Below, piece by piece: positions 3,587-53,250 of a stretch of DNA of 64,000 bases. How positions within the stretch are numbered: position 1 is the first letter of the stretch; each line of letters begins with the position of its first letter. This stretch comes from Octopus vulgaris (Eukaryota), in the NCBI GenBank assembly GCA_951406725.2, contig OX597814.1:47802001-47866000 (forward strand), written 5' to 3'. A model generated the notes under the pieces. That model worked only from the letters and a program-made list of their open reading frames with translations, searched no databases and was not told the DNA's origin. A program made the position numbers and the translations under genes.

Positions 3587-4344
3587 AATTCAGAGCGGCC
3601 AGGGACGTGAATTCGGATAATGAAGACTAATGAAGGCATACTCAATATCGATATATCGATACCTATATCTATCTATATGTAGGTATATGTGTATAAATAT
3701 ATATATGCATGTATGCATTATGCATAATATGCATCTATGTATACATGTACATGATGTACGTATGTAAGTATGTATGCATATATTTATGTAAATATATATA
3801 TTTATATGTGTGTATATATATATGTATATATATATATAAGTATAATTATTATCTATTTATCTATATATATATATGTATGTATGTATGTATGTATATCTAT
3901 CTACCTATTTATCTATACATACATAAATACATACGTATATGTGTGTGTGCGTGTGTGTACACACACAGACATATACATACATTTAAGATGAAGAGACTAC
4001 ACTGGGAAAACAATGGTTATGTTATGAACTTGATTAGCTTACATCTATTCCTGCTATAAGATGCAGTGAACTCGTAGTTGAATGCCTGAATAACATCCTG
4101 TAACTTCATCAGAGCCTCGAATACGAAGTTCAATTTATTTGTGGAAAAAAGAAATAATTACATTTGTGCAATATATAGAGATGGCATTACCAGTGAGAAA
4201 ATCATTACTGGTGCATATAAAAAATGTATGTCCAACAAGCCAATTAGATTTACTAGTAGAAACAGTAGAAAAAATATCAGAAAAAGAATGTATGTATAAA
4301 TATATACACGTGCACCAGATTATTAGTCTCGCGATGCCTAATCG

Positions 4345-4390
<46 letters not shown>

Positions 4391-4699
4391 GTGTGTGTGT
4401 GTGTGTGTGTGTACATACGCGCACGCATATGACAGTCCTGTGAATGACTTTAAACTGTATCCAGTAGTGGAGGTGTGTTTCGGGAATTCCAAGGATTTGA
4501 GGAGAATGGAACTACCTCTCAGCCGCTATTGTTCCCTTGTCTACTAGGACTCGGAGTAGTAATACTTGTTAGGATTCCAGCTACAAGTTAGCTAGCATAT
4601 ATGATAACATATCATCTGAGCGCGAGGACGTAGGGGTACTCTTGATAGGTGTCAGGGGACTCGGTAAAACCACTGGGAGTAAGGGGACCTTGGCTCTTG

Positions 4700-4877
4700 T
4701 CTACCTCCACTTCATGAAGGTCCTTCAGATGTTTTGGCAAGGCGTTAAACAGCTGCGGGCCCTTGAATCCCAAGCAGTACATGAGTCCTAAATACATATA
4801 TGCACCTTTATACATACATATATATGGAGATAAGGTTAGATAATTGTCGTGTTGATAAAGGGTCCTGAAACAGAAAC
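4700..4877 (-). repeat. Local duplicate of 2198-2373 (CR1 fragment plus flank)
   Basis: About 177 bp, more than 90% identical by eye, from TCTACCTCCACTTCATGAAG to CTGAAACAGAAAC, including the non-LINE flank. Confidence 0.9.
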
Positions 4878-5089
4878 TCTAGGAGAGGGACGTTCTGATG
4901 TAAAACTGCGGTTTCAGATGATTACTGGTTATCTTACTTCGGTCTGTCACTAGACACTAATCATGGAGACTCAAAAAGTGGAACTGGAGTTGTACAAGCG
5001 TTTATCACTCTAACCTAATGATATAGGGATGCATCTATATAGTGACCTCATTTGTCATTCCTTCTACTGAAAGTCCTAAAGCGATGGAA

Positions 5090-5270
5090 GAGTGACGACG
5101 CATGCAGACCTAACCAGTTGGAAGCTCACAGTAAGTTGCAACTGTCACCAGTCACGTATGCTTCAAATCATGCTGATTTGCAACAGGACTTAATAATCAT
5201 TTGAGAAGTCATGGATGGAAAGTCAGAAATGCTATTGATAACGAAGAAGCCCGAGGAGACGGCAACCATC
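5090..5270 (+). mobile_element. Probable RTE-clade LINE 3' remnant
   Basis: Decayed C2H2-like end (...GLNNHLRSHG) followed by a short 3' UTR ending GGCAACCATC, as in RTE ORF C-termini. Confidence 0.4.
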
Positions 5271-5327
5271 TGTGAAGATGGAGCAAACATCATATACATA
5301 TATGTTTTGCAAAAAAAACACCATATA

Positions 5328-5595
<268 letters not shown>

Positions 5596-7252
5596 AAATG
5601 AACATGAATGTATAGCAAAATATTGTAATAGTAATAATATATGTAACCTGCAACATAAAATTTAGAGAAAAATTACAAAAATACTCTTGAAGATGTTTGT
5701 GTGCTTGTGTATGAAAAAAAAAAGAAAACACATAAAGAATAATTTAACAGGGTTATGGCCGATAGTTGAAGATTACAGAGCTTTGACCTTATCAATAAAA
5801 GAGGCGTGGAATATTATAAAAATGGAATTACAGACAGACCATATTAATGGTAGATATGTTTCATAAGAGTAAATTGCAAGGAAACAAATGCTATAGATTA
5901 TGACTCAATTAAATAGTCATTAGTAGTCCCAAGAGGAGTTAGACGCGTACCTAATGATAAAACCTCTGAATGGACTTCACATTGTGATTGCATTTTCCTT
6001 ATTACCATCTATCCATTTATCAATTCCTCCGTTTCTATTTCGTTTTTATCTATTGTATTTTGCCATACAAATTTATAAGCTAGTGATAAGAAAATCTCAG
6101 AAGATCAATTTAGATAATATAATGTGTGTGCTGATGGAATTGTCAGAATTCTTTTGAATATATTTTATTTTATGTAGCATAGTTTTAGGGGTGATAAATT
6201 CGCTTCGCTATAGAAAACGTATAACATTTGTTAAATGATATTTTGAAGACTGATTGCAACTCAGTTTCAATGAATTAATGATATTTCACCTTGAGACTGC
6301 CAACAAAAACACCAATACCAAGAGTCTATATGTATGTGATTTAATTTTAAATGAAAATTAGGTCAAATTCAAACATATATCTAGTTAATACGAATATTGA
6401 ATCTAATAATTTCTTGAAAAAAAATATCGTTGCTTTGCTGACTAATCTCATGTGTGCGATCTTTTTCTTTCTTTTTTTTGTGCAATCTTGTAAATATTTC
6501 TTGCTGCACAACAACATATATACACACACAACCCCGCCCCCTCCAAAAAACAAAACAACAACAAAACAAAACAAAACATTTGGAGTCATAAAATGAAAAA
6601 AAATCTTCATGCGTACGGGTTTTGTTCCAGCTGAGCGGTCAATGTTATTGACAGCATTTACATTGTCTATGTTAATTGATATAAGCTTCGTGACCTGTGA
6701 ATGATATTCATCATTGACCGTCGGAAAAAAAAAAGAAGAAAGAAAAAAAAAGCATTTTCGATTGTGGAACATGACTCAGTGATTGGAAGCCTAAATGTTA
6801 TTACAGAGTTGCTCTATCTCTTTTAGGTCTTTTAGTTAAGAATAAGAAAGGTTTTTCTGCAACAAAAATCTTTACTGAAAAATGAATTAGTCAGAAACAA
6901 ATATCAACAATTTATCTCTGAGATTAATATAGTTGTTAAACTGTGTTATTTATGGTATGGTTCCAGAGGAATAATTGTTGCATTAGAAAGAACAAGCAAA
7001 TATCCAGATTCATTAACAACATCATCTCCATGAACTAATACAGTTATACCAGTTTCGTCTAGGCGGTCGGGTATGATGGGAAATTTAATTATGACACCTT
7101 CATTTCGCCTTTCTTCTTCTTCTCTCGCTTTTCTTTTCATTTTTTTTTTTTTTTTTGTCGAAATGCTGCACTGCTGTCCTTAATTCGCTCCATCTCAAAT
7201 TATATCAGGGATATCGTAAATTTATATGAATAAAACCAAATAGAGTATAGAC

Positions 7253-7637
7253 AGTGGAGGCGCAATGGCCCAGTGGTTAGGGCAGTGGACTCGCGGTCAT
7301 AGGATCGCGGTTTCGATTCCCAGACCGGGCGTTGTGAGTGTTTATTGAGCGAAAACACCTAAAGCTCCACGAGGCTCCGGCAGGGGATGGTGGTGATCCC
7401 TGCTGTACTCTTTCACCATAACTTTCTCTTACTTCCTGTTTCTGTTGTACCTGTATTTCAAGGGGCCGGCCTTGTCACTCTCTGTGTCACGCTGAATATC
7501 CCCGAGAACTACGTTAAGGGTACACGTGTCTGTGGAGTGCTCAGCCACTTACACGTTAATTTCACGAGCAGGCTGTTCCGTTGATTCGGATCAACCGGAA
7601 CCCTCATCGTCGTAACCACGGAGTGCTTCCAAAAAAA
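7253..7637 (+). mobile_element. Full-length tRNA-derived SINE, family A, with 11-bp TSD
   Basis: A box TGGCCCAGTGG, B box GTTTCGATTCC, A-tail; TSD AGAGTATAGAC at 7242-7252 and 7638-7648. Confidence 0.93.
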
Positions 7638-7874
7638 AGAGTATAGACTAACCTAAAAAAATAATCAACTTTCTGAATATTATCGACACACTGTCTTATC
7701 CAGTAGCACACAATATTACCGTCTTAACAATATTATACTGTATATTATACAATTTTAACACAATACAAGTTTAGTGATGATAAATTTTAAATTTTAAGTA
7801 AATTTTAATAACTACTATACATTATTAAAGTCTGATATTTATACTGCATTTTTATTATTACCTTCTACAGTAAT

Positions 7875-8288
7875 GCTTTCTACTCTAGGCAAAAAGCCCG
7901 AATTTTTTTTTTTTTTTTTTTGGTGGTGGTGGCGGTGGTGAGGCAGTCGATTAGATCGATGCCAGTACGCAACTGGAACTTAATTTATCGACCCTGAAAG
8001 GATGAAAGGCAAAGTAGACCTCGGTGGAATTTGAACTCAGAACAGACGAAATACCCATTTCTTTACTACCCACATGGGGCTAAACACAGAGGGGACAAAC
8101 AAGGACAGGCAAACGGATTAAGTCGATTACATCGATCCTAGTGCATAACTGGTACTTAATTTATCGACCCCGAGAGGATGAAAGTCAAAGACGACCTCGG
8201 CGGAATTTGAAATCAAAACATAACGGCAGACGAAATACTGCCATGCATTTCGCCCGGTGTGCTAACGTCTTTGCCAGCTCGCCGCCTT
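7875..8288 (-). mobile_element. Composite family-B SINE (head/body, Tx1-type tail, second body, native tail) with 15-bp TSD
   Basis: Minus strand: GGCGGCGAGCTGGC head, body CTTTCATCCTCTCGGGGTCGATAAA, tail TGTCCCCTCTGTGTTTAGCCCCATGTGGGTAGTAAAGAAATG, then GGTATTTCGTC and a second body. TSD ACCTT(C/T)TACAGTAAT at 7860-7874 and 8290-8304. Confidence 0.88.
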
Positions 8289-9586
8289 AACCTTTTACAG
8301 TAATACCAGTTTCGTCTGGACGGTCGGGTCTAGTGAGAAATTTACTTATAGCACCTTCATTTCGACTTTCTTCTTCTTCTTCTTCTTCTTCTTCTTCTTC
8401 TCTTTTTTTTTTTTTTCGAAATGCTGCCCGCTGCCCTTAATTCGCTTCCTCTCTAATTATATCAGTGATATCGTAAATTTATATGAATAAAACGAAGTAG
8501 AATATAGACCAACCTAAAAATAATCAACTTTCTGAATATCATCGATACACTGTCTTATACAGTGACACATAATTTTACTGTATTAGCAATATTATAGTGT
8601 ATGTTACACAATATCAACACACAATAAAAGTTTACTGATGATAAATTAAAAGTTTAAGGAAATTTTAATAACTACTATAGATTATTAAAGTCTAAAATAT
8701 TTATTCTGCATTTTTATTAATGATATATTAATACAAATAAATTGTGCAGCCCGGAGCGGACCGCCCTCCCCGCCTCTTTGGCACGCCACTGATTTGAACT
8801 AGGAGGCAACCATCCAAAGGGCAATATTTCTCCCAGTATTAACAACCATTGCACTTTCCTTATACATTTTACATGGCATATAAATAAAATACTATGTGGA
8901 TACAGTAAGTGGGTGTATATGACTATGTGTTCAACTAATTTATTAGTGGAACACATGTTTAAACCTGATTTCAAGATGAAACACTGAAGCGTTAGTTCTC
9001 TTCATAAACTTTAGACATTTGAAACGCGAATCTGTAGACTTGTACATTACACTGGTCATAAATATAAAACTGATTATTCGTATATATAAGAGAAAACATT
9101 ACCGCTAAGTCTTCAACTGAATTACGCGACCAAAACGTGTAAAACAGTTTTTTATTTTATTTCTAACAGTTCGCTTATTATGCAGAGTGCAGGTAGATTT
9201 TCCATTCAGTTTTATGATTCTTTTGCTTTTTATTTCATTTTTCATAATACTGTGTGATGTTGTTTCGCATCTGTACTTAATCTTAATGTTACTTCTCGAA
9301 CACGTTCAAAAACTAGTGTTTTGTCTTTACTGGCCTTTTTCTACGTTTGTCTTCCAACTCAAATGCATTCAAATTTAAAGTAATATTATTAAATTAGATT
9401 CTATAATTTTTCTTTTTCTTTCACGGCACCACAGTTTTTCAACTTCTATCATCTCTCGTCCAATATATTTCCCTTCTCATTTTCTTCAGATATTGCAGGA
9501 TATACATGATTTTTTTCCTGTTAATTCTTTAAAGTGCTACATTTGTCAAGTCTTCGTTCATTTTATTCTTTCTGCCCACAACACCA

Positions 9587-10010
9587 ATATTGTTTTCAAA
9601 TTTTAGCACAAGATCAGCAATTTCGGGGAAGGAGTAAGTCGATTACATCGACCCCAGTGTTTCAGCTGATTCTTATTTTATCGACCCCGAAAGAATGAAA
9701 GGCAACGTCGACTTCGGCGGAATTTGAACTCAGAATGTGAAGACGGGCGAAATACCTATTTCTTTATTACTCACAAGGGGTTAAACATACCTATTTCTTT
9801 ATTACCCACAAGGGGTTAAACATAGAGGGGACATAGGTATTAAGTCGATTACATCGTCCCCAGTGTTTCAGCTGATTCTTATTTTATCGACCTCGAAAGG
9901 ATGAAAGGCAACGTCGGCTTCAGCGGAATTTGAACTCAGAATGTAAAGACGGACGAAATACCGCTAAAGATTTTGTCCGGTATGCTTATGATTCTGCCAG
10001 CTGGTTGCCT
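9587..10010 (-). mobile_element. Family-B SINE interrupted by an 84-bp Tx1-type 3' tail insert between 122-bp direct repeats
   Basis: Repeats 9635-9756 and 9841-9962 differ at 7 positions. Insert 9757-9840 holds two copies of TATTTCTTTATTAC(T/C)CACAAGGGGTTAAACATA. Confidence 0.9.
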
Positions 10011-10308
10011 CAAACAACAATAATATTGATTTCAAATTTTGGCTGAAGGCGGCGATTCTGCCAGTTCGCCGCCTTAAACACAATACCAATATCGAAAAGG
10101 AAGTATAACTTGCTGGAATTAAAATGCTGCCAGCTGGAATGCTGCTCTTAGCAACCAAAAGAGGTCATTCAGCCACCAGACTGACAACCTTATGAAAATA
10201 AAACTAGCAAAACTCTAAAATCGAGCATGAAAAAGGCATTCAGCAAAACCTACCCATTTTTATTTTTAATCTTTTATTTGTTTCCGTTAATGGACTACAA
10301 CCATATTA

Positions 10309-13300
10309 TATTTCTTTATTACCCATAAGGGTTTACATAGATGGGGACATTCAATGATTTGGGGTCATGTGGATGAAATGGAGCTATTTACAGGGACATC
10401 GAATGGATTATTTACAATGAAAATGAAAATGAAATTGAACAAGAACAAACAAACAAAAAGGGACATATGAAGTCAAAAGAACAGGATAGCCGACCCCACG
10501 AGCCCTGTTATTTTAACTGAAACTTTTTGGTAAGGGATCACGGCGTGTTCATGCAAGGCCTTTCACACCTAGCATCCGTGCAACACGCATCCATCTTTTT
10601 TTGAATACAGACTCTGACAGACACATTTTCTCTAGCCCCACCTTCCTTTTCAGATGGAACTTGAAAAAGTTCGTTAGGGCGGTGCCAGAGATCATGGTGT
10701 CTGACATTATACCTTTCACTCTAGTCTTCCATATAACCCCTTTCGCAACTGCTACTATCACGAGAAAGCAATGCTTACCTTCGTTCGTCATGAAACCAGG
10801 CGGGTCAATTTTTAAGATTTACTCAGACGACAGCTGTACTCTTCTTCCGTCCGACAACAGGTGTTCGGCATAAACCCACACGTCCGAAATATCCGGACTG
10901 AACAATAGCGTGCAGGACTGTTTCCACATCCCGCCCGCATCTTGGACAGACCGATGGTCCACTGTGACCATACCTTGTGAGTTTATCTCGAACGGGTAAG
11001 GCTCCTCTGTAACATTGCCAGGCCAAGGACTTCTGAAAATTATCCAGTGTCCCTGGTCCGAATGTCCTTTAGAACAGGCTGTCTAACTGATTACCATCGA
11101 GACCCAGGGTCCTTCCCAGGGTATCGTCATTTCCGGCCTCTACCAACCTGCTATAGAACGCTGCGGTGGTACCAAAGCCGCCGGCATTGCCCGTGCTGCG
11201 GAAGTGTAAGAGAGCCTTACGGCACTCCCAATACCACATACTCAATCTTAGTCTGCGACGAAACCAGGTTTCTCTACCACCAAAACTGGCAAAACTGGGG
11301 AACATCTGTTTTGCGAGTGGGGACCACACCCGTTCACCTTCTAGGTATTGCCAAAGATGCCTCAACATCAGCGCATGTCTGCGCATCAACAGCCAAGGCA
11401 TCCCTAACCCACCCTTTAACGGCTTTTGACAACAGATAGAACGTCTCATAAGAGGAGTGGAACCCTTCCACAAAAAGCGAAAGATTTGCCTCTCCATCTT
11501 GCTCAATCACGAATCCGGACAAGGGACGACGGTTAGGCGGTATATGATGACCGATGCCATGAACACATTGGCCACCTCCGCCCTCCCTTTCAAGGATAGC
11601 CACCGCCAAGACCAAGTCTTGACCACGTGAGCCACCTTGCTCGCGACCTCAGACCAGTTCTTTTCTATCTGGAGACCTGGACCAAACCAGATCCCTAGCA
11701 ATTTAACCGGGGCCTCCGTCCAGCATCCCACGATGCTATTCGAAGCGAAGGCATCGACTTGCCAACCCAGGTGCCGAGTTGCAAGCCGACTGACTTTTCC
11801 CGGTTGGTTTTTGCTCCTGACACCGTCTCGTACTCCTTGATGGTGTCTCCTACATTCTGTAGGATGATGGTGGTGTCGTCCGCATACGCTGTAACAGATC
11901 CTCCTCCTCCTGGATTTGTCGGGATGACGCTCAGCTTTCGCAGTAATGGCTCGAGAGCCATCACATATAAAAGCGGAGAGAGCGGACACCCTTGACGAAC
12001 TGACCGTTTGATGCGGAACGACCTAGAAAGTAGACCGTTCACCCGAACGATCGAGTCGATGTTGTACAACTGTATAATCCACCTGAGGAAACCAGTACCC
12101 AGCCCGAACTGTGCGAGTACAGACACCAAGTAACGATGGTTCACCCTATCGAAAGCTTTACTCTGGTCTAAATGGACCAGTGCCCCACCCTTGCCAGAGT
12201 TATTCCCAAACCCTTCTACGGTGTAACGTATAAGGTGAAGATTATCCTGAATAGTTCTTCTGGGGACTGCAAAAGTTTGTGCCTCCTCGATCAGACCATC
12301 TGCGACACGCGTCAACCTTTTCGCTAACACCTTGGCCAAAATCTTCACCTCCGCGTTCAGCAGGGTGATAGGCCTAAAGTTATCTATTCTGTTTCCCTTG
12401 TCGAGGTCCTTCCTGATCAGTGTCACCACTCCCCGGCGTACAGACCTGGGAATCCTCCCATTCTGATACCAGTTTGCGAAAACGCTGGCCAGTATTGGCC
12501 CGAACAAGTCTGGCATACTTTTATATAGTTCGTAGGGTAAACCATCGAGTCCCGGCGCCTTACCTCTGCCACAGTCGGCTATGGCCTCAGTCACCTCCTC
12601 AGGCGTGATTGACCCTTCACAGCTCTCCGCATCCCGCCCCGAGAGGCGCGGCAGCCCGGCGAGGAAGCCCGTAAGGTCCACCCTCTCATCCGGTCCACCT
12701 TCACCCCCGAAAAGCTGGGCGAAGTGCTCCTGAAAAAGTCCGACACATCTCCTCGGGTTCGTTTACCACATCGCCCTTTTCGTTCGTCACAGACTTAATT
12801 GTGGAATCGTTTCCGTGTTGAGCCTCCACAACTCGTGCCCATCCGGCGGCCTTAATTCCCTCGCACCCCATTGCGCGAACTCTAGCTCTGACGATACAAC
12901 CCATATGCTTGGTTTCGAGGTGCTGGTTTAATTCCTGTCTCTTCACCTTCACCTGGGTCCCGTCGCCAGATCTTATGGCTTCTTCTAAAGCCTTAACTAG
13001 CCCCTCTTCTTTCTTACGCCTTTTATTTGCTAGTCCCATACTATATCTAATGGACTCGTATTTTATGGCTCTCTTGAGCGCTAACCACCATTTGTTGTTA
13101 AGAATGGAACCGGTTAACGCCCTCTGAATTTGTAACCTAATCCGGCTTCTGTACTCCTCAATCGCCAAAAGGGACTTATTGAGTTTCCAGTAACCGGATC
13201 CTTTTCTACATAACTTATCTAGGTACAGCTTACCAGTGACCATCTTGTGGTCACTGTAACTGACCAAGTGAAACTGTGGACACTTAACTATGCCTTTATC

Positions 13301-14056
13301 TAGTTCTCTAATAAAAATCATGTCTATGTAAGATTTGGAAGACCCGTCGCTATTTGACCACGTCCACAGTGGAGCGTCCGGGAATTCCAGTCTGTAAGGA
13401 TCTACTAGCTGAAAGCGACTCAGTAGATCTCGTAAGCCACTGTTAGGTTTCCTATCATCTTTGGAGCCAACACTATCGACACGCGCATTGACAATAGTGT
13501 TAAAGTCCCCTAGCATCACTATGGATTTTGACGTCCCTAGAAATTTCTCCAGGTCCCGAAAGTAATCAGTCTGATGTGATTGGGGTGCGTACACCGCCAC
13601 CAGCCTGATCTCCTTACCACAACTGAAAGTCAGACCTAAGACGACCAGCCCTACCCTCTGGGTCAACAAAAATTAACTTTTTCTCTGAAACTCTATTCCT
13701 TTTAAGTAGGACCAACACCCCACTTCCGCCACCCACCTGCCGACATGGAGAAATAAATTTCTCGTAGCCATCCAGGAGCGGGAGTAGATCTCTTGGCCCT
13801 TTCAACCGAGTTTCAGTAGCTACAACAACATCTAAATCGTTTCAGTAGCTACAACAACATCTAAATCGAACTGTTTCCAGTTCGTCATCAGGCCACGCAC
13901 ATTTAAACACCCTACTTGAACAGCCATAAATCACTTACTTTGTTTCTTCTGAGTCCGGGGGGCGAGGGAGAACCGCCTCCTCTTCGTCTGGGGCCCGTGG
14001 AGTCGGCTGGATCAGGCCCTCGTACAGACGGTTCGAAACCTCCATCCGCAGAAGGC
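10309..14056 (-). mobile_element. Tx1/L1-clade non-LTR retrotransposon, 5'-truncated within ORF1, decayed
   Basis: APE, RT and CCHC domains in order; 3' UTR ends AATAAAGAAATA; TSD GGACTACAACCATATTA at 10292-10308 and 14071-14087. Confidence 0.95.
10549..13927 (-). pseudogene. LINE ORF2 (AP-endonuclease, reverse transcriptase, zinc finger), broken by frameshifts and stops
   Basis: Start MAVQVGCLNVRGL (ATG at 13927). APE motifs AVYAP, MLGDFN, SYID, SDH, WKLN (12701-13669). RT motifs KAPGLDG, FRPITLLN, DQSKAFD, QGCPLSP, YADD (11695-12681). GGLGMP. CPRC...ETVLHA (10823-11026). Confidence 0.95.
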
Positions 14057-21091: not shown

Positions 21092-21690
21092 GATGGTCAG
21101 CTGAAAAGATCATTGGCTGATCAAGAATGGAATGTAGCAAATGAGGTTTATTTTTCAACATAATCCCCCTTACGGTCCACACACGTTTTCCATCGGTGTT
21201 GCAGTGCCTGAATTCCATTGGTGAAGACGCTTTCAGCGGCAGATATGACATCATCTCTGTGACACTGGTTCCCAGTCAAGAGTTTTTTTCATATTGATGA
21301 ATAGTCAGATGGGGCCCAAATTGGGAGAATAGGGAGGTTGTCCGTTGAAACCAAGGACTTATGTGCTGGAGCATTGTTCTGATGAAACAAGACCCATTTC
21401 ATTAGTTTTCCTGGTTGTTTGGTCTGGATTACCTTTCGTAGCTGCCTCAGCAAGTTGACATGGTACTCTCCATTGATGGTGTGACTCTTTTGAAGATAGT
21501 CATAAACACAATGCATCCAAAAAACTGAGGCCAGATGAAACGACTTTGGCCTTATTTGGAGCAGGCGAGGTGTTTTCATTGCATGGATTGTCTCTTTGTC
21601 TCTGGCTCAAAATGATAAAGCCAACACTCATCCAGGATTAGGAAATATTCAAGGAAACCAGCAGGGTCTACCTAAAACAATGTCAGATTC
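21092..21690 (-). mobile_element. Mariner transposase remnant (catalytic DD34D region)
   Basis: ASVFW...DYLQKSHTINGEYHVNLLRQLR...KWVLFHQNNAPAHKS...APSDY; TIR-like GCTGAAAAG near 21100. Confidence 0.85.
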
Positions 21691-22668: not shown

Positions 22669-22698
<30 letters not shown>

Positions 22699-22702
<4 letters not shown>

Positions 22703-22807
22703 CACATTGAAAACACCGGTTCTCGTCCGTTCACAGAAGTTAAGCAACGTCAAGCCTAGTTAATACTTAGATGGATGACCACTTGTGAAACCTAGGTGCT
22801 GTAAGCA
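22699..22807 (+). pseudogene. 5S rRNA-derived sequence missing about 10 nt at the 5' end
   Basis: ATATCACATTGAAAACACCGGTTCTCGTCCGTTCACAGAAGTTAAGCAACGTCAAGCCTAGTTAATACTTAGATGGATGACC...CCTAGGTGCTGTAAGCA aligns with molluscan 5S rRNA, including the internal control region, with several substitutions. Confidence 0.92.
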
Positions 22808-32980: not shown

Positions 32981-34182
32981 CTGGGTTGGCTAAAAAGTCT
33001 GTTCAGTTTCTGTCGACAATAAAAATTCCAGCGTTCTAATATGTAACTTCAGCCTGTCCCTCGTGCATGTACACTCGTTAGGTAGTTAGCGCTTCAACGT
33101 AGTTCCTCATGAACTTGCGACTAGAAAGATTGTATTTTGCGTGCTTGGGATCACCTTGAGAATGAAGAACCAAAACGAACATTATCAACAACTCATGTTT
33201 TTTTTAATTTTTTAAAAAGCCAGAAAACGGTGGAAACCTACAAGAATATATGCGCTGATATACGAAGGGGATGTTGTTTGTGAATCTGTATGCCAGAAGT
33301 AGGTTTCAAAATGTCGATCGGGAAACTTATCGGTTTAAGATGCGCCTCGCTCTGGCCGGTCAGCTGAGATTAACAGAGACAACAACACTCGTTATACATC
33401 CAGGATGATCGCAGATATTCTTCAGATATCTACATCGGGTGTTGATAACTATCTTCATCAGCTTGGTTACATAAGCTGTCTCGATGTTTGGGTCCCACAT
33501 CAATTGAATGAAGCTAACCTCGCCCAACAGTTTTCCATCTGCGAACCGTTACGGAAAAAAAAAGCAAACGATTCATTTTTTGAAGAGACTGATGATAACA
33601 GGGGACGAAAAATGGATCGTCGAAGCGCAAACGCTCATGTGGGAAGCGCGGCAAACCGATACAAACAACCTTTAAAGAAGGGCTTCAACCAGAAGAAGGT
33701 TATGCTTTCAATTTGGTAGGATTTGGTGCTGTTTTTTACGAGCTTCTTCACGCAGTCAGGACCATAAATTCATTTCTGTGCTGTGACCAGCGAAACATAG
33801 GAAGCACAGCACTCTACCAAATTAAGCACTGCGTCCACCACTTACTAATTGTAAGGACACTGCCATTCATCACGACAATGGTAGATTACACACTTCTTTG
33901 TAGACGCGCAGACGTTAGAGGAGTTTGGCTTGGGACTTTTGCCGCATCCTCCATATTCACCCGATATTGTGCCTTCAGATTTTCACCTGTCATTGTCTCT
34001 GAAGAACTAAAAATTCACCTGGAAGAGATTTTCGCCAGTAAAGACAAGAAATTCTTCGAGCACAGAATAATGGATCTGCCTATAAGATGGCAGAGGATAC
34101 TGAACTGAAATGGTTATATCAGTTACTGAATAAAACTTTTGCTTAACAAAAAAGAAGTGAACGTACTGTTTGACCAACCCAG
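32981..34182 (+). mobile_element. Near full-length decayed mariner transposon
   Basis: TIRs CTGGGTTGGCTAAAAAGT and TACTGTTTGACCAACCCAG-TA, about 1.2 kb apart; transposase motifs DAPRSGR, WVPHQL, KKVMLSIW, HPPYSPDIVPSDF, DLPIRWQ with stops and frameshifts. Confidence 0.92.
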
Positions 34183-37838: not shown

Positions 37839-39403
37839 ATATATAGCTACATACATATATAGGTATATGTGTGTGTGTGTATTGAAATATATATATATGT
37901 ATATATGTATTAACATATTTATGTATGTATGTATGTATGTCTTAGTCCAAGCAATTTACTCTAACGCAGCTAGAACGCTGGGGACATAGATGTTCGGTAT
38001 ACTATAATTTATTGGAACAAACCATTTTGCTGTCGATAATGAAAATAAGACGAATTCAATTTCTTGCTGCCAGCCTAAAACAAATTGATTGTTAATGAGG
38101 TCCTCGATGGTAAGGCTTCGCTATTCAATTAGATATTTCATGCACACTGTACAGGATTGGCAGGCCATCATCTCCATTACAAAATTTTATCAGAAAGACC
38201 GCCCTCCGAGCGGTTTTCTGCTAGCCCCTTGATTCTCAGTTCTAATAATTTTAATATTTTACGTCTAATTATTTCTTTGTTTAATAGTGCTCACATGCTT
38301 AGTAAATATTGCTTTCATTATTTTATTATAGTCATAATCTCTCTTTTTGAAACAAACATCACGGTAGTCCATCTGTAAACTTTGCAACGTGTGTGTAAGA
38401 GAGGAGGGGAGAGAACATTGCAAACAATGAATGAAATAAACATGAAATGAAAAAAATCGTATAAATAAAAGAGCATTACTACAGATGTATACGCCCCCAA
38501 ATTTGTTGCCTCATAACATCCAGAAAACTGGATAATTTTTAACAAAGTTTTCTACAAATACCGCTTAAATGTTGTGGCTTCAGAATATATAGGGATTTAT
38601 GGGAAAGAATTTTTCCGAGGGGTGGAGAGAGGGGGTTCAGAAAATTCACACAATCTGACTTTTTTCCCTCATAACTTTCAGGAAAATGGGTATCTTTAAA
38701 TAAAAATTTATGCAAATCCCTTTCAAACTGCATAGATTATGATTATAAAGAAATTTGTGGGGAAAACTTTTTCGGGGATTTTCCCAATTTTTTTTTAAAC
38801 CACAGTCTTCGAAATGATGGGACAGGAGAGACATCTTTGTATGAAAATGTTTTAAAAAAAAGTTTTTTTACACCTTTTCCTTCATCATCCCACTCCGGAC
38901 CTATTTTGGTAAATTTTCTTTTGCACTTCAACACAATGGGAAAAGTATTTTCGGTAAAAAGTTTTTTTAATTGTTAATATTTTTTGAGGGAAAAGTGAGT
39001 GATTTAAGGGCAATTTGACTGTTGTTTCTAACAATCCAAAGACAACCCTCCTCGTTTCTTTATCACTCTCAATTATTGATGTTTTCATTACTTTTCCCCC
39101 ATAAATACATTTATATGCTATGAAAAGGAAAATTTGAGAAATAATGAATTTGTTTGCAACCCCACACCTTGCCCCCGATTGTTTCCGTTTAGAAATTAAA
39201 ATATTGGAGAGCCTGAGAAGGTCATTGCTGGTATTTATCCACAGTGATTTTTTTTAAATTACGGAGATGTACTTGCATAGCAAGTGACTTGATCTGAGAT
39301 CGAGTACTGAAACAAAATGAATTGCAGTGTGAAAGATGTTTGTAAGCCATTCAAGAACACACAAAATCCGTTAGTTTCACTTCAACATTTAAATTTCATT
39401 TGT

Positions 39404-39447
39404 GTCAAAATATTTTCGTCGCTTTGAAACCGCAACTGTTCACTGAC
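39404..39447 (-). ncRNA. Minimal type-I hammerhead ribozyme motif, G3-C8 variant
   Basis: GTCA-GTGAACA-GTTGC-GGTTTCAAA-GCGAC-GAAA-ATAT-TT-TGAC: stem I, core, 5-bp stem II, GAAA, palindromic loop, UH site. Confidence 0.8.
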
Positions 39448-39480
39448 GAAACTTCACAAAAGTGACGCAGCAGGAAGTTT

Positions 39481-39527
39481 TGTCAGTGAATAGGACGCGG
39501 TTTCAAAGCGACGAAAATATTTTGACA
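39481..39527 (+). ncRNA. Hammerhead motif, partly degenerate mirror copy
   Basis: TGTCA-GTGAATA-GGACGC-GGTTTCAAA-GCGAC-GAAA-ATAT-TT-TGACA; G3.U8 pair and a mismatch in stem II. Confidence 0.65.
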
Positions 39528-40509
39528 CAAATAAAATTTAAATGTTAAAGTGAAACTAACAGTTTTTGTGTACCCTTGAATGGCTTACAAACATCTTCCA
39601 TGCTGCAATTATTGTTGATTTAAAAAAAGAGTTATGTAAATGATAATTTATTTTAATAGCATACTTTTCCGTTAGAAAATGTTTTTTCTTGCACACACAC
39701 TCACACACACACACACGGCTTTGCTTGATTGAGGTGGGGGTAAAAATTTAGATCACAATTTATTTTGTTGTTTTTCTTCCACCAATGGACCACGTATGTG
39801 TTATTTCGGGATCATCATTCCATAAAATGCGTTCAATGGGAGAAAAATATAAAATAAAAAACATGTAAGAGTGAAAAGGGAGAGTGGTTTGGGTTATGCT
39901 AGTAACGACAGCGAAACCTCCTTTGAATTGTTCAACTTTTCTTCTGAATATACTTACAATGTTTTGTTTTTTTACCGAAAAGGCTCCATGGAGGGAGTTA
40001 AAAAGGAAAATGGCGAAAATCGGTCCAGATAGTTATTGTAAGGCGTTTCAAACTGCCATAACAACAAAATCACTTTCAATCTTTTTTTACAAAAATTATA
40101 CGGTATATTAAAAAAAATTTCATTCAATAAATAATGTTTTTACATTAAGTATACATTAATAGAATAAATTAATAAGCTGTCGGTTTTCCAAATAGCGAAT
40201 TAAAACTTGAAATGAAAACATTAAAAGAGAAAGTGAGAGATTTTGCAAATAAAAATGGAATACTCCGCTGTGAATGCAATGAATATTTAAATTTGAGAAG
40301 AATTGGACACAGTGAATGCAATGGATATTTTGCGAGAAATTGGAGTTAAAAAATTCAATATGCTTGAGAAATCGAAATTATAGGATTTTTCTTCGAACAT
40401 TCGTAGCAATTTCATGAGTAGTATCATGAAGATATTTCAACGAGTGTGACGCCATCCGTATTATTTGGATTGTGTCTGTAATAGGTTTTTACGTAATAAG
40501 GTATCTCAA

Positions 40510-41790
40510 ATGGAGACAAAGAGTTACGCTGCAGTAACGTGAAGACAAGGAGATATGGATCCAAGTTTGCTGGAGCAATATGAAGTGGATTTCAAGGCAG
40601 AATTCGTTAAGAAGTACCAAGATAGGTTACAGAGGGAGGGGTCTAACATAAAGTTGAGCCCCCCCCCCCCCCAAGAAGAAATGAAGGAAATGGAAAACAG
40701 AGATAGTATACAGAACGTTCTCGAGAAGCAAGAGAAGAATAGATATAGCAACACAGGAAGAGGTGAAAAAGTGCCTAGAGGATATTAAGGATGTTATTAC
40801 CTTTTATACAAGAGGTAGAAAGTACGGCACGGTGGTCGTCACTTTCGTCTCCAAAGAGGAGGCAAAGGAGTACTCCGCCGTGACATTACATTCGGACGAG
40901 TGGACTCTCCTGTCTACACACCTGGGCAAGCGCGTTGCCAGGGTTAGGATATGCTGGATTCCGCCTGAGATTGAGCTCGAGTAGCAGATGGCAGGGGTCC
41001 TTGATGTGGGAGACGAAGGGGGAGATGAGAGCATTAGCATCCTCCAGGTAACCCGGACCCAACAAATAAATTGGTTGGAGATGTTTTTGCGGGCCAACCA
41101 AACAGAATATGCTGGAATACCGGAGACAATAGAGCTACTCAATGGGGTAAAATTGGAAGTAATATTGGAAGGAATGCTCCCTACTTACTATTCTTTCGGA
41201 AAGAAAGGTGTCCCAAACAAGTGAAGGAGCTTGCAGAGATGGAAGCACAGGAATGTGGAGTGGAAATGGAGCAAAAGACCTGAGACGCGGAACAGGATAC
41301 AAATTTTAGAGGTAAAAACAAGAGAGATAGAGGAGGAACACACTGCCAAAAGAGGAACTACAGCAAAAGAAACATAAGACACAGGAAGAAACAGACCCAT
41401 TAAGACAAGCAACAACAAACAGAAGCAACGCGCCCATAAGTTCACCAAAAAGGAAAAACATCACAAGCAGAGTGGAATCACAAAGCAGACACACAGACAC
41501 ACAGACACACAAAAACAGACATACAGACACACAGACACAAAAACACACAGACACACAAGATGCACAACAGGGTGAAAACATATAGAAACAAAATATATTT
41601 AGTAACATATTGCACAAATCAAAAAATCGAAAGAAAAATAACGAAAATGAAAAATATTACAAGAGTAAAATTAACAGAGGATTACGACAAGGACATGAAA
41701 TGTATTTTGGTAAATGAAGAAAGGTATAGAACACTAAAAGAAGCATTTCTATTGAATGTGAATCCACTGGGGCCAGAGATGAGAAATTAA
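40510..41790 (+). mobile_element. Decayed Tx1-type ORF1 (RRM-like region plus eroded zinc knuckle)
   Basis: METKSYAAV start; YGTVVVTFVSKEEA...ARVRICWIPPEI; VILEGMLPTYYSFGKKG resembles an eroded CxxCxxxGH; low-complexity K/E/T-rich C-terminus. Confidence 0.7.
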
Positions 41791-41963
41791 CCCCGTATTC
41801 CGGTGGTAAATATGATGAGATAAATAAGGACATTAAGTGGTAAGTAAAAATTATTGAGAATTAACTTATTAGAAAAAAAAACTTAATGAATAATAAACGT
41901 TTTAAAAGGGGGAAGAAAGGAATTTTGTAGAAATATTTGAATCAATTGTAAAAACATAATCAT

Positions 41964-42860
41964 CCCAGAGTTAAGTTGCTAGCAGTCTGGTTTGGGCCAC
42001 ATCTCCAGGTAGAAAATACCTGGGCTGATGTATCGAGTAAGGTGACCCCCATAGTCAAGACCTGGTCTTGGCGGTAGCTATCCTTGAAAGGATGTGTTTA
42101 TCGCATCGGTCATCATTTACCGCCTAACCGTCGTTCCTTGCCCAGATTCGTGGTTGAGCAAGTTGGAGAGACAGATCTTTCGCCTCTTGTGGAAGGGCTC
42201 GACTCCACTTGTGAGGCGTTCTATTTACTGTAAAAAACCATTAAAGGGTGGACTAGGTGGACTTGGTTGTTGATGTGCAAACATGCGCTGAGATTGAGGC
42301 ACCTCTGGATCGTCCTGGATAGTTTTAGGGTGCGGACTTCGCTTGCGAAACGGATGTTTCCTAGGTTCACTAGTTTTGGTGGACGGGAAAACTGGTTCTG
42401 TCGAAGATCGAGGTTGGGTATCTGGTTTATAGAGTGCCGTAAGGCCCTCCCACTGTTCCGTCGCTCAGGCAATGCTAACAGTTTTGGTACAACCGCATCT
42501 CTTTATAGCAAGTTGGTAGAGTCTAGATGTGACGATACCTTAGGGGGGACCCTGGGCCTCGATACTGATCAGCTAGACAGTCTGTTCCAACGGACATTCG
42601 GGCAGAAGAAACTGGATAACTTCCAAAAGTCTCTGGCCTGGCAATATTACCGAGGAGCCTTACCCGTTCAGGATAAGCCCACAAGACACAGCCAACCCGG
42701 CCCATCGACCTGTCCAAGATGCGAGCAGGTGAGGGAAACCGTCCTGTACGCTATTGTTCAGTGTCCGGAAGTGTCAGAATTGTGGTCTTATGCAGAACAC
42801 CTGTTGTCGGATACAAGAAAATTACAGCTGTCGTCTGAGTCAATTCTAAAAATTAACCCA
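41964..42860 (+). mobile_element. Tx1-type ORF2 3' fragment, same family as 10309-14056
   Basis: HALRLRHLW...WFIECRKAL...DNFQKSLAWQYYRGALPV...CPRC..VRETVLYAIVQC is closely similar to 10800-11712. Confidence 0.93.
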
Positions 42861-42989: not shown

Positions 42990-43044
<55 letters not shown>

Positions 43045-43176
43045 AAAATAGTAAAGTGTGAAAAAACGACAGAAGGCTTAAATGTTAAAAAATATATATA
43101 TTTGTGTCAAAATGTCTGGAGAATATTGGAAAAATTTTTTTCCCTTCCTTAAAATGACATAATTTTAAAATTTTTA

Positions 43177-43216
43177 AAGAAATTACCGGTTTCGCGTGTA
43201 GCTTTTCAAATTTCTT
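43177..43216 (-). ncRNA. Minimal type-I hammerhead motif (mirror of 43943-43982)
   Basis: Exact reverse complement of 43943-43982. Confidence 0.8.
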
Positions 43217-43942
43217 GTGACGTTATGTTTATATTGCATGGAGTTATCGTTGTTTTTATTTCCAGGAGATTTCTAAATAAGGGGAGGTAGTGAGTGATTT
43301 CTTCCGGTGTAGGGGAGATAATCGCTTAAAAATTTTTTTTCCCTTTTCCTTGTTAATTTCTCTGTGTCAGTATGTTCGGATTGTTGAGTCTTTTTTCCCT
43401 TTTCCTTGTTAATTTCTCTGTGTCAGTATCTTCGGATGGTTGAGTCTGGGTTTGTACTTTTCAATGAAGAATGTTTCCTTGTTCAGTCTCATTTGTGTTG
43501 TTGATCCGAAAGCACATTGGTAAAATGGGAAGATTAAAAACAGATTGCATTCCCAGAATATAGAATGATACCTTTTAGTGAGCACATTGAGAAATGCGCA
43601 AAGCAACTACTGCCACAATTTTTAATCTTCCCATTTTACCAATGTGCTTTCGGATCAACAACACAAATGAGACTGAACAAGGAAACATTCTTCATTGAAA
43701 AGTACAAACCCAGACTCAACCATCCGAACATACTGACACAGAGAAATTAACAAGGAAAAGGGAAAAAAGACTCAACCATCCGAACATACTGACACAGAGA
43801 AATTAACAAGGAAAAGGGAAAAAAATTTTTTAAGCGATTATCTCCCCTACACCGGAAGAAATCACTCACTACCTCCCCTTATTTAGAAATCTCCTGGAAA
43901 TAAAAACAACGATAACTCCATGCAATATAAACATAACGTCAC

Positions 43943-43982
43943 AAGAAATTTGAAAAGCTACACGCGAAACCGGTAATTTCTT
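43943..43982 (+). ncRNA. Minimal type-I hammerhead ribozyme motif, U3-A8 variant
   Basis: AAGAAAT-TTGAAAA-GC-TACAC-GC-GAAA-CCGG-TA-ATTTCTT: 7-bp stem I, core, 2-bp stem II, GAAA, palindromic CCGG, UA cleavage site. Confidence 0.8.
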
Positions 43983-44156
43983 TAAAAATTTTAAAATTAT
44001 GTCATTTTAAGGAAGGGAAAAAAATTTTTCCAATATTCTCCAGACATTTTGACACAAATATATATATTTTTTAACATTTAAGCCTTCTGTCGTTTTTTCA
44101 CACTTTACTATTTTCTTATATATTCACCCACGTGCTTTACCAAACAAACTTTCTTA

Positions 44157-44199
<43 letters not shown>

Positions 44200-44771
44200 T
44201 CGAACACACACACAAATACGTGTGTGTGCGTGTGTATGCACTTGGTACCTCACCGGTTATCTTACCACCGGGACATTGAGTAAGTCCTTTATAGCCTGAA
44301 AAGCCTTCTCTAACTACCTTGAAATGTTTCCCCTCCAATCTCTTTCACCTTCAGTTCTTCAAAATTAAAATTTGCTTTATCACAAACGATAGCATTACTC
44401 AATGAATTTCTTTGTTGTTTGTTTGCAAGTCTACCACCTGCAATGATAATACCTTCCATTTGATTCACTTATTTAATACCAGAATAACTCAGTTGCGTAA
44501 CACAGTCTGATAGTTTGCTGCATTGAATATTTAGCATCGTCGTACAATCAAGGCAGTTTATTCTGACTGGCTGGAATTGCACCGGTAAGATATGAGCGAT
44601 TTGGACATATTGCAAATAGCACCATTATTGCCAATCAGCGCAATCAAACCGGTGTAAAACCAGGAAAGACTGTGAGAGTGTGTGTATATACACATTAATT
44701 TTTTTTTAACAAGTATTGTATCGACAGTGACCCCGAAGTTTCGGCTGGCTAAACCATCGTTGGATAGTCTG

Positions 44772-45074
44772 TGGAGGCACATAGCCTAGTGGTTTGAGCA
44801 GCGGACTCGCGGTCGAGAGATCGCGGGTTCGAATCTCAGACCGGGCGATGTGTATGTTCATGACCAAAACATCTAAAGTCCACGCGCTCCGGCAGAAGGT
44901 AATGGCGAACTTCTGTTGACTCTTTCGCCACAACGTTCTCTCACTCTTTCCTCCTGCATCATGCAGCTTACTTGCGACAGACCGGCGTCCCGTCCAGGTG
45001 GGTAACCTATACGCCAAGGAAACCGGGAAACCGGCCCTTATGAACCAGGCGTGGCTCGAGAAGGAACAAACATC
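44772..45074 (+). mobile_element. tRNA-derived SINE (family-A head, different 3' half) with 10-bp TSD
   Basis: TAGCCTAGTGG / GGTTCGAATCT boxes; TSD GGATAGTCTG at 44762-44771 and 45075-45084. Confidence 0.9.
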
Positions 45075-45075
45075 G

Positions 45076-45122
45076 GATAGTCTGATGATGACTTAGCAGG
45101 CCGAAACTTCGAGGTCACTGTC
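45076..45122 (+). ncRNA. Type-I hammerhead motif with canonical CUGAUGA core
   Basis: GATAGT-CTGATGA-TGACTTAGCAGGCC-GAAA-CTTCGAGG-TC-ACTGTC. A mirror copy with eroded core lies at 44723-44763 on the minus strand. Confidence 0.7.
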
Positions 45123-45235
45123 AATATTATTCGTGTTACAATAATTTGTACTCTGCAAAAGTATTGAATAATCTTTCAGTTTCATGAAAAAGTTCTTTTA
45201 TTCTAACTCGATATAAAAACAAACCTTAATATATA

Positions 45236-49879: not shown

Positions 49880-50386
49880 TGAGTTGAGCGGTGACGAGCA
49901 AGCAAACCAGAGGCTCGTTGATTTTTGTTGTTGTCACTTAAATGCTCCATACTTCTGAACTTTACCCATCGAGTGAACATGCTTCTCTAAGGAAGTGTGG
50001 GAGCATTCCATTTTATCTGCCAGTTCCCTTGTCATTTGACGAGAATTTTCGTGCAAAAGTTGGTTTAATCGCTCTTCATCGAACTCAACTGGACGGCCAG
50101 AACGAGATGCGTCTTTGAGGTCAAAATATCCATTTTTGAACTTAGCATACCAATCACGAGCTGTTCTTTCAGCTATGGCACCCTCTCCATACACAGCACA
50201 AATGTCGTGAGCAGCTTTTGCGGCCTTAGAACCTTGATTAAAAGTAAAAAGAAGAAGGTGTCGAAAATGCTCGTTTTCCTTAACGTGACATTCCATTTTA
50301 ATGATCTGAATATAAACAAAAATTAACTAGAAAAAAAAAAAATTCCAAAATTTAAAAAAACCGCGGGAACTTAGTTGCCAACCCAA
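49880..50386 (-). mobile_element. Mariner 5' fragment (TIR plus HTH DNA-binding domain)
   Basis: TIR TTGGGTTGGCAACTAAGTT next to TA; ORF 49934-50296 MECHVKENEHFRHLLLF...ICAVYGEGAIAERTARDWYAKFK...SRSGRP. Confidence 0.92.
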
Positions 50387-52449: not shown

Positions 52450-52980
52450 GCGAAACGAAGAAACAGCGGGCCTCTGTGAAATTCTGTTTTCTGCTAGGGA
52501 AAACGACGGCTGAAGCAGTTCTCATGCTTCAAACAGCTTACAAGGGCGCTGCCATGAGCAAAGCACAAGTTTAAGAGTGGTTTTCCTACTCTAAGAATGG
52601 AGACTTCTTGCTTGAAGACCAATCTCGTTCAGGGCGACCGTTGATATCTCGAGCGATTAGAAACATCATGAAAACTCATGAACTGATCTTGGAGGGCCGC
52701 TCCGAATGATTGACGAACTTGTTGATATGACTGGTGTGTTCTGGAGCTCCTGCCAATGAATTTTGAGCGAAGAATTGCAAATAAAAAGAGCTACAACAAA
52801 ATTTGTATCGCGTTTGCTCACGGAAGATCAAAAGCAGTTACGACTGAGTGTGCGTCTTGAACTGAAAGAACAGTTCAAAGTTGATCCGAACCTTTCTTCG
52901 AAGATCATCACTGTTGACGAAAGCTGGTGCTACGGCTACAACCCGAAAACAAAGCAGCAATCAAGTCAATGGAAGCATTC
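52450..52980 (+). mobile_element. Mariner transposase remnant (N-terminal half)
   Basis: QRASVKFCFLLGKT...TAYKGAAMSKAQV*EWF...RSGRP...KIITVDESWCYGYNPKTKQQSSQWKH. Confidence 0.9.
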
Positions 52981-52987
52981 AGGTGAC

Positions 52988-53250
52988 CAGGGCCCGAAAT
53001 TGTTCAACATCCTTCCAGGCAACCTTAGAGATCTACATGGTGTTATTGTGGAAGTTTTCAAGGAACGTCTGGATAGGTTTCTATCTGAGATACCAGATGA
53101 ACCCACTTCGCGGGTGGAGACGCAAAGAAGAGCAGCTCCATCCAACTCGCTACTTCACCAAAAACAATATCGGAAACAACACCGAGTAACTACAGGTGGG
53201 GCACCAGCATGACCTCAGCCCTGAGCTGAAACCAGTAAAAGATAAAAGAT
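52988..53250 (+). mobile_element. CR1-clade LINE 3' end with intact tail
   Basis: QGPKLFNILPGNLRDL...FKERLDRFLSEIPDEP...NSL...GGAPA*, then the hairpin TCAGC-CCTGA-GCTGA and (TAAAAGA)n. Confidence 0.88.

What the first reader, a model, noticed from the sequence alone, without database searches (positions are those of the whole stretch)
44723..45122. Third inverted hammerhead pair, split at its symmetry axis by a SINE
Seen: removing the SINE (TSD GGATAGTCTG) leaves GACAGTGACCCCGAAGTTTCGGCTGGCTAAACCATCGTTGGA-TAG-TCTGATGATGACTTAGCAGGCCGAAACTTCGAGGTCACTGTC. This is a hairpin whose arms are two back-to-back hammerheads, with a canonical CUGAUGA core on the plus strand and a near-palindromic stem III. 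Three unrelated inverted ribozyme pairs with three different 3-8 pairs thus fall within 6 kb. Inference: inverted hammerhead doublets are a recurrent Penelope integration product, and the hairpin tip was a nick-prone site used by the SINE.
Basis: partly seen in the sequence, partly recalled or inferred. Interest (0 to 1): 0.7.

Follow-up and report, generated by a model that had tools for sequence, protein, structure and literature searches.

The report
Back-to-back Penelope ends, SINE-split
This is an old, decayed pair of jumping-gene ends joined back to back, a known layout, later interrupted by an unrelated short repeat probably by chance; the one unusual point is that such pairs in this family almost always join at one base that is predicted to be the element's transcription start.

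Summary
The structure is real: a tRNA-like SINE (44771-45072, 11-12-nt target duplication) sits at the axis of two head-to-head copies of the 3' end of an old Penelope-like element, each with a type I hammerhead motif. The family is genome-wide: 34 of 102 and 48 of 89 sampled arms form such doublets. Both arms of a doublet share subfamily letters, so doublets arose repeatedly. Head-to-head Penelope ends and opposite-strand hammerheads are in print, and this scan found them in other genomes.

Corrections: the 'canonical' CUGAUGA core is a CpG decay product of an ancestral CCGA core. The left arm is dead, and both motifs are predicted to be locked in the long hairpin. The SINE at the tip is unreplicated (none in the other doublets; one genome-wide pattern hit, itself). 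Doublet centres are, however, hotspots for small indels (25/34 against 2/23).

Not found in my searches: the join lies 31 nt below a TATA box, on an initiator-like CAGT. This suggests the doublets record the RNA 5' end (inferred, untested).

The parts
44690..44765 (-). Left arm: inverted short copy of the Penelope-like element's 3' end (outer boundary approximate, truncated)
   Evidence: 65/83 identical to family majority; sequence
44723..44769 (-). Left hammerhead motif, decayed: core CCAACGA (G5 lost at 44761), two mismatches in stem I
   Evidence: 44761 is C in orthologous contigs of runs X11, X12, X13
44760..44770 (+). Left copy of the SINE target duplication (-6 to +4 of the axis); axis base at 44766
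44771..45072 (+). tRNA-like SINE with A- and B-box-like motifs (read by eye, consensus recalled) and an AAC-type tail; at least 4264 candidate copies, best others 92-93% identical
   Evidence: ARAGORN finds no tRNA gene
45073..45083 (+). Right copy of the target duplication; axis base at 45079 (predicted +1 of the element's transcript)
45076..45122 (+). Right hammerhead motif, type I: stem I 6 bp with one wobble, CUGAUGA (U4 from CpG decay), extra U, weakened stem II, self-complementary stem III, predicted cut after 45116
45080..45229 (+). Right arm: full short copy of the element's 3' end, ending in TA
   Evidence: 114/135 identical to family majority; outer end compared by eye
43036..44158 (.). 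Neighbour, other family: young head-to-head Penelope-like insertion, 505-nt arms 99% complementary, U3-A8 hammerheads, 35-nt tail on the right arm only (44124-44158)
39380..39620 (.). Neighbour, other family: G3-C8 hammerhead-like pair around a fixed asymmetric 18-nt centre inside a high-copy repeat

Best explanation
The site is a head-to-head pair of short 3'-end copies of an old Penelope-like retrotransposon, joined at a base that is likely the element's transcription start, and later interrupted by a SINE whose position on the axis is probably chance. Shown: family membership, recurrence, fixed join, TATA box 31 nt upstream of the join in longer copies, CpG origin of the U4, instability of centres. 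Inferred mechanism: the element's enzyme cuts TA-rich DNA and primes reverse transcription from both target strands at a fixed point about 150 nt downstream of the join. On a transcript starting at the element's own promoter each cDNA runs off the RNA 5' end just upstream of the hammerhead core. The two cDNA 3' ends, self-complementary over ACWGT, anneal and are filled in, giving a perfect palindrome without promoter or ORF. The hammerheads are passengers, predicted to be masked by the long hairpin. The perfect centre then often gained small deletions or insertions. Much later the SINE inserted by ordinary target-primed reverse transcription.
For: Family and class: 126 and 232 exact motif hits, controls 0. 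L302 holds RT, CxCX5C linker and GIY-YIG remnants between an arm ending at the axis and a sense arm (tblastn E 1e-7 to 3e-3); L187 holds the endonuclease C-terminus. Recurrence: arms of one doublet agree at subfamily letters (+59: 54 of 59, p 2e-11; +58: 55 of 60; +46: 63 of 71) but not at CpG sites (p 0.24-1); shared non-majority letters exceed 3000 of 3000 permutations. Fixed end: 48 of 89 centre-anchored arms are doublets, 30 of them intact at the same axis; L302 and L325 join an arm ending at the axis to 2.5 kb and 0.5 kb of body. Promoter: in 43 body-bearing copies TATAAAG starts at -31 and the axis is the A of CAGT. The six-base ATGCAT palindrome at -9 and the TATA palindrome were not seen as common joins, as expected if the template ends first. 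Both-strand priming and internal initiation are shown in vitro for another PLE (PMC11167929). Centre indels: 25 of 34 doublets against 2 of 23 body copies, p 1.7e-6. SINE: and the rival below.
Against: No transcript end was observed; the start site rests on motif spacing recalled from general knowledge, and an all-A/T box may look conserved because it mutates slowly. The young neighbouring family has no such fixed join (27 head-to-head pairs, 131-7245 nt apart), so the rule is not general. Its symmetric joins lie on small palindromic words, which alone could explain a preferred join. Matching arms fit fold-back self-priming equally well. The one-sided tail and an insertion duplication could not be found for this family. 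Pfam and PDB did not recognise the reference ORF. Centre indels cannot be dated to birth or later; the same scan gave 20 of 23 in one arm window (-92 to -82), which I take for a reference artefact without having checked it, and 4-14 of 19-34 in the others.
Confidence: 0.55

Rival explanations
1. Fold-back self-priming: one cDNA, or an antisense template as Arkhipova et al. proposed, folds back at the small palindrome in the 5' strand of stem I and copies itself; the join marks a sequence feature, not an RNA end.
For: Arms match by subfamily. Joins lie on palindromic words here (ACWGT, TGCA, AATT) and in the young family (ACGT, TA). Proposed in PMC3846280 (passages).
Against: ACWGT is a 2-bp stem with a 1-nt loop and cannot fold as a hairpin; better palindromes upstream were not seen as common joins; short arms ending at the axis are also joined to unrelated body positions (L302, L325) or stand alone (18 of 89).
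Confidence: 0.25
2. The doublet is itself a non-autonomous mobile unit (palindromic mini-element or MITE) copied from a few masters.
For: Constant axis and constant outer ends; only about three subfamilies are resolved. The neighbouring family at 39380-39620 does look like this.
Against: The same arms continue into RT/GIY-YIG body in 19 of 89 and about 23 of 102 loci; no left-right asymmetry shared across copies was seen; mixed short-long pairs exist; the doublet lacks the promoter.
Confidence: 0.12
3. One reading: the extruded hairpin tip was nicked and the SINE used that nick.
For: The duplication spans -6 to +4/+5, nearly centred on the axis; centres are indel hotspots; palindrome centres are known to break (PMC8701086, passages).
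Against: No long insertion at the centre in the other 34 and 48 doublets (sets overlap slightly; 1.5-kb flanks); a full SINE copy sits in an arm in L281; genome-wide pattern: 4 hits against 3 control hits, only this one in the family, sensitivity about one third; the rough chance expectation is 0.07-0.3 such events; duplication length and tail are ordinary for this SINE; both duplicates share two centre mismatches, so the tip was already imperfect.
Confidence: 0.2
4. The plus-strand hammerhead is an active ribozyme freed by the SINE insertion.
For: All core bases canonical; stem I pairs 6 of 6; stem III can form a homodimer duplex of -9.5 kcal/mol.
Against: Stem II has an A-C mismatch; the isolated 48-mer folds no better than shuffles (z 0.15) and not as a hammerhead; with the SINE in place the arms still pair and hammerhead pairs have probability near 0.
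Confidence: 0.07

Closest known systems
EN+ Penelope-like insertions with inverted pLTR (Adineta vaga Pen2/Pen2a/Pen3a, PMC3846280; Craig et al. 2021 Fig. 2, PMC8557442)
   Same: Head-to-head arrangement, palindrome at the join, inverted 5'-truncated copy beside the 5' end, TATA and initiator-like motifs in the terminal repeat.
   Different: Here both copies are cut down to about 150 nt and the join falls on the initiator-like base itself, excluding the TATA box, in a third to a half of sampled arms; no tail or insertion duplication was found.
Hydra clade of C-terminal EN+ PLEs (PMC8557442, section read)
   Same: CxCX5C linker, CxxC and CxH near the C-terminus, insertion in (TA)n, hammerhead present.
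   Different: Assigned by motifs only, on decayed copies; no tree; RWK and DKT motifs were seen only in the young relative L224.
Minimal type I hammerheads of metazoan PLEs (Cervera and de la Pena 2014, PMC4209133)
   Same: Extra base between 9 and 10.1, G10.1-C11.1, palindromic stem III, U3-A8 variant, and pairs on opposite strands 100-700 bp apart already reported.
   Different: The ancestral core here has C at position 4 family-wide (U4C is cited only as a weak viroid variant in PMC3088659); stem III is longer (10-nt palindrome); the pairs overlap at one base.
Poseidon element of Anolis (PMC11167929)
   Same: Internal reverse-transcription start downstream of the hammerhead, AT-rich targets, extension of both strands: the basis of the inferred mechanism.
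   Different: There the ORF starts at stem II; here the ORF ends some 500 nt upstream and no ORF start was found at the ribozyme.

Membership tests
EN+ Penelope-like element | Reverse transcriptase in the linked body | tested here: met
   L302 matches the RT region of the intact L224 ORF (E 2e-7, 3e-5); one L224 homologue carries a source label 'Reverse transcriptase domain'; Pfam and PDB blank
EN+ Penelope-like element | C-terminal GIY-YIG endonuclease | tested here: met
   L302, L187; Atlas hits 0.85-0.89 named GIY-YIG, a lead only
EN+ Penelope-like element | Tandem or inverted end repeats carrying a hammerhead | tested here: met
EN+ Penelope-like element | 30-40-nt tail on one end only | tested here: inconclusive
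   Not discernible in this old family; clear in the neighbouring young family
EN+ Penelope-like element | Placement in an RT phylogeny | not tested
   No tree built
Hydra clade | CxCX5C linker; CxxC and CxH near the end; (TA)n targets | tested here: met
   L302 linker, L187 and L119, flanks, against the text
Hydra clade | RWK and DKT motifs | tested here: inconclusive
   RWR and DKT in L224; region missing from the copies of this family that I hold
Type I hammerhead ribozyme | Core boxes and three stems | tested here: met
   Plus-strand copy; the family majority differs by C at position 4; minus-strand copy fails (G5 lost)
Type I hammerhead ribozyme | Covariation or selection on the stems | tested here: inconclusive
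   Copies decay neutrally; no compensatory pair among the variable columns
Type I hammerhead ribozyme | Self-cleavage | not testable with these tools
   Folding predicts masking
DNA-transposon MITE | Inverted repeats not derived from a retroelement body, with fixed target duplication | tested here: not met
   Arms continue into RT/GIY-YIG body
Non-LTR retrozyme | Head-to-tail tandem units with one hammerhead each | tested here: not met
   Head-to-head pairs and single copies dominate; a direct neighbour was seen in L137 only
tRNA-derived SINE | Pol III boxes, simple tail, variable target duplication, high copy number | tested here: met
   box consensus recalled; superfamily not determined

The most novel reading that the evidence does not exclude
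These doublets are fossil 5'-end maps. Two reverse transcriptases primed from both ends of one cut each run to the capped start of a Penelope transcript, and their ends anneal through the first strand of the hammerhead. The ribozyme would then begin at the first bases of the RNA and could remove the cap, and this family spread with a naturally weakened U4C core. Any family's doublet axis would predict its start site.
Probability: 0.35. Interest if true: 0.6.

Novelty: new member of a known kind. Interest (0 to 1): 0.32.

Why it matters
The locus itself is a dead repeat. Its family bears on an open question, how Penelope elements make head-to-head insertions (self-priming on an antisense template against two primed cDNAs). 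A join fixed on a predicted start site gives a testable prediction. It is also a caution: CpG decay can create a canonical hammerhead core from a non-canonical one, so motif scans can miscall both activity and ancestry.

Tried and rejected
Rfam: no hammerhead among the 150 matches shown of 230. My first descriptor scan missed the site because stem II has a mismatch; the stricter scan found one arm of the 39.4-kb pair only. Sequencing runs: no RNA holder listed; contigs of X11-X13 carry the SINE at the same place, and no empty site was among the joints shown (50 joints not shown). No hammerhead was found for the young L224-L229 family, so it could not test the start-site idea. A young 215-nt hammerhead mini-element gave no adjacent doublet in 30 copies. 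Ribozyme cleavage as the cause of the join was rejected: the cut is 37 nt from the axis. A splice acceptor at the axis was considered (CAG|T) and set aside because CAG is retained and no foreign exon appears. In one search the 'WC pairs 8 of 44' count and the L005 line are misregistered and were not used. Lunse et al. 2017 is not held; it, or supplements of the papers read, which I did not open, may already list U4C or inverted pairs.

Full report
Observation. A 302-nt repeat at 44771-45072 has at least 4264 candidate copies, a G-TGGAGG start, an AAC-type tail and variable duplications of about 8-16 nt in most of the 29 other copies viewed. Its ends are fixed by loose-end pile-ups in other runs. 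The duplication here is 11 nt (12 with an ambiguous G), not 10: 44761 is C in orthologous contigs of X11, X12 and X13, making both copies identical. Those contigs run into the SINE, so the insertion is shared; no empty site was among the joints shown. With the SINE sliced out in a script, the site folds at -63.4 kcal/mol, z -13.5.

The family. The window lies in a 2.8-Gb animal assembly; earlier notes call it octopus (unchecked). Two motifs gave 126 and 232 exact hits with 0 control hits; their overlap suggests roughly 4,000-11,000 arms (1 of 89 and 6 of 102). I examined 102 of the 126 and 89 loci from the first 100 listed rows of the 232 (9 rows not fetched, one dropped as the second arm of one doublet, two rows in one locus). 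In the first set 34 have an adjacent inverted partner, 25 were scored as running into element body (one probably mis-scored, one a duplicate) and 43 neither. In the second set the script called 42 doublets; six more are doublets with large deletions on inspection, 19 run into body, 4 have a more distant or partial partner, and 18 have none within 1.5 kb.

Class. The body holds a GIY-YIG-type C-terminus about 500-700 nt upstream of the hammerhead (L187). L302 joins an arm that ends at the axis to 2.5 kb of sense body with RT, a CxCX5C linker and endonuclease remnants, then a sense arm. These motifs and the (TA)n flanks fit the Hydra clade as described in PMC8557442 (section read). Pfam and PDB did not recognise the intact 955-aa relative L224; one of its 78 homologues carries an RT label. 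No tree was built.

Recurrence. In 93 distinct doublets, the two arms agree at subfamily letters (+59: 54 of 59; +58: 55 of 60; +46: 63 of 71; +49: 54 of 63) and not at CpG positions (earlier 31-doublet permutation, 0 of 3000). About three subfamilies each make doublets at the same axis. With the short-long pairs (L302, L325, L286) this argues for formation at insertion, although gene conversion or a few masters is not excluded.

The axis. In 43 body-bearing copies (some duplicated) a TATAAAG starts 31 nt upstream of the axis base, which is the A of CAGT. That is the spacing of a polymerase II core promoter (recalled knowledge). A start two bases earlier would also fit and would coincide with the first base of stem I. 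Inference: the join is the RNA 5' end; two cDNAs primed from both target strands run off it and anneal over ACWGT. PMC11167929 shows internal initiation and extension of both strands in vitro (passages and part of the main text). Against generality, the young neighbouring family has 27 head-to-head and 0 tail-to-tail pairs among 100 listed of 690 hits, 131-7245 nt apart, with no fixed join, and its symmetric joins lie on small palindromic words.

The ribozyme. Position 4 is C in 91 and T in 40 arms, position 5 G in 108 and A in 28, with no agreement between arms (p 1 and 0.42), like the other CpG sites. The ancestral core is therefore CCGA, and the CUGAUGA at 45082-45088 is most simply a deamination product. 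PMC3088659 mentions U4C as a weakly active viroid variant (passage; the only paper listed for that search). In the window the left core has lost G5, the right stem II has a mismatch, the isolated right motif folds like shuffles, and in context hammerhead pairs have probability near zero with or without the SINE.

The SINE at the tip. The duplication spans -6 to +4/+5 of the axis, which is suggestive, but the nicks it implies are in the stems. Both duplicates share two departures from the family majority, so the centre was already imperfect; the SINE differs from its majority at about 17 of 302 sites (read) while arms average 84% identity. No other doublet is split by a long insertion at the centre; L281 has the SINE in an arm. 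A pattern for the SINE tail 12-42 nt before the GAAAC box found 4 hits against 3 controls, only this one in the family, at about one-third sensitivity. My rough chance expectation is 0.07-0.3 events. So enrichment is neither needed nor excluded. What is enriched is small indels: 25 of 34 doublets within 5 nt of the axis against 2 of 23 body copies, p 1.7e-6, and 18 of 48 in the set selected for an intact left side. Arm windows gave 4-14 of 19-34, plus one window of 20 of 23 that I take for a reference artefact. Asymmetric deletions at palindrome centres are known (PMC8701086, passages); whether these arose at birth or later is open.

The other two pairs. 43036-44158 is a young textbook insertion with a one-sided 35-nt tail and U3-A8 cores. 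39380-39620 has G3-C8 and nearly the same asymmetric 18-nt centre in all 29 copies displayed of 30, about 10 with a full left arm, which looks like one master (the query included the centre, so the sample is biased to it). With hundreds to thousands of copies per family, three within 6 kb is not remarkable; I did not test this formally.

What is known. PMC4209133 (parts 1-2 of 4 read) reports minimal hammerheads in PLE ends, U3-A8, the extra base, and pairs on opposite strands 100-700 bp apart. PMC8557442 (passages) and PMC3846280 (passages) describe inverted 5' copies, head-to-head joins with palindromes, and TATA plus initiator-like motifs. PMC2377424 (passages) finds a TATA-less internal promoter in Drosophila Penelope. 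PMC6765202 and bioRxiv 10.64898/2026.07.22.740005 were seen as passages. Nine searches showed no paper placing the join at a start site; Lunse et al. 2017 and all supplements were not seen. This scan noted similar doublets in other genomes, two with joins inside the ribozyme's first stem (unchecked).

Verdict. Real, a new member of a known kind; first inference right but published, second unsupported. Interest 0.32.

Noticed in passing
window 39380-39620: G3-C8 hammerhead-like pair with UUU at the cut triplet; nearly the same asymmetric 18-nt centre in all 29 copies shown, and about 19 have only a 20-nt left arm followed by other sequence.
   Followed up: partly
window 43036-44158: Young Penelope-like family with U3-A8 core: 690 exact motif hits, 27 head-to-head against 0 tail-to-tail pairs in 100 listed, tail on one arm only, symmetric joins on small palindromic words.
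   Followed up: partly
L350-L379 (e.g. L224:1310-1530): Young non-coding element of about 215 nt with a canonical minimal hammerhead and a fixed 5' end, single copies in (TA)n, 98-100% identical, 1327 candidates; 2 of 30 carry C at core position 4.
   Followed up: partly
L224:1614-4481: Intact 955-aa Hydra-clade-like ORF with a long asparagine-rich stretch between RT and endonuclease, as described for Adineta; 3' region over 2.6 kb; no hammerhead found by my scan.
   Followed up: partly
L289, L334, L138, L009: Doublets joined a few bases upstream of the usual axis, on AATT or TGCA words of the body.
   Followed up: partly
family position +19: An A/T difference in the stem II loop region often differs between the two arms of one doublet (window, L008, L015, L312), unlike the other subfamily letters; seen by eye only.
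   Followed up: no
window 22689-22807: 5S rRNA-like sequence (Rfam 69 bits) after a TA repeat, probably a 5S-derived repeat.
   Followed up: no
window 11069-13672 (-) and 40800-42860 (+): Fragments of a non-LTR retrotransposon with endonuclease and RT frames; two related copies in opposite orientation.
   Followed up: no
window 21289-21606, 33339-34108, 49934-50326, 52760-53212: Mariner-like transposase fragments, recognised by eye.
   Followed up: no
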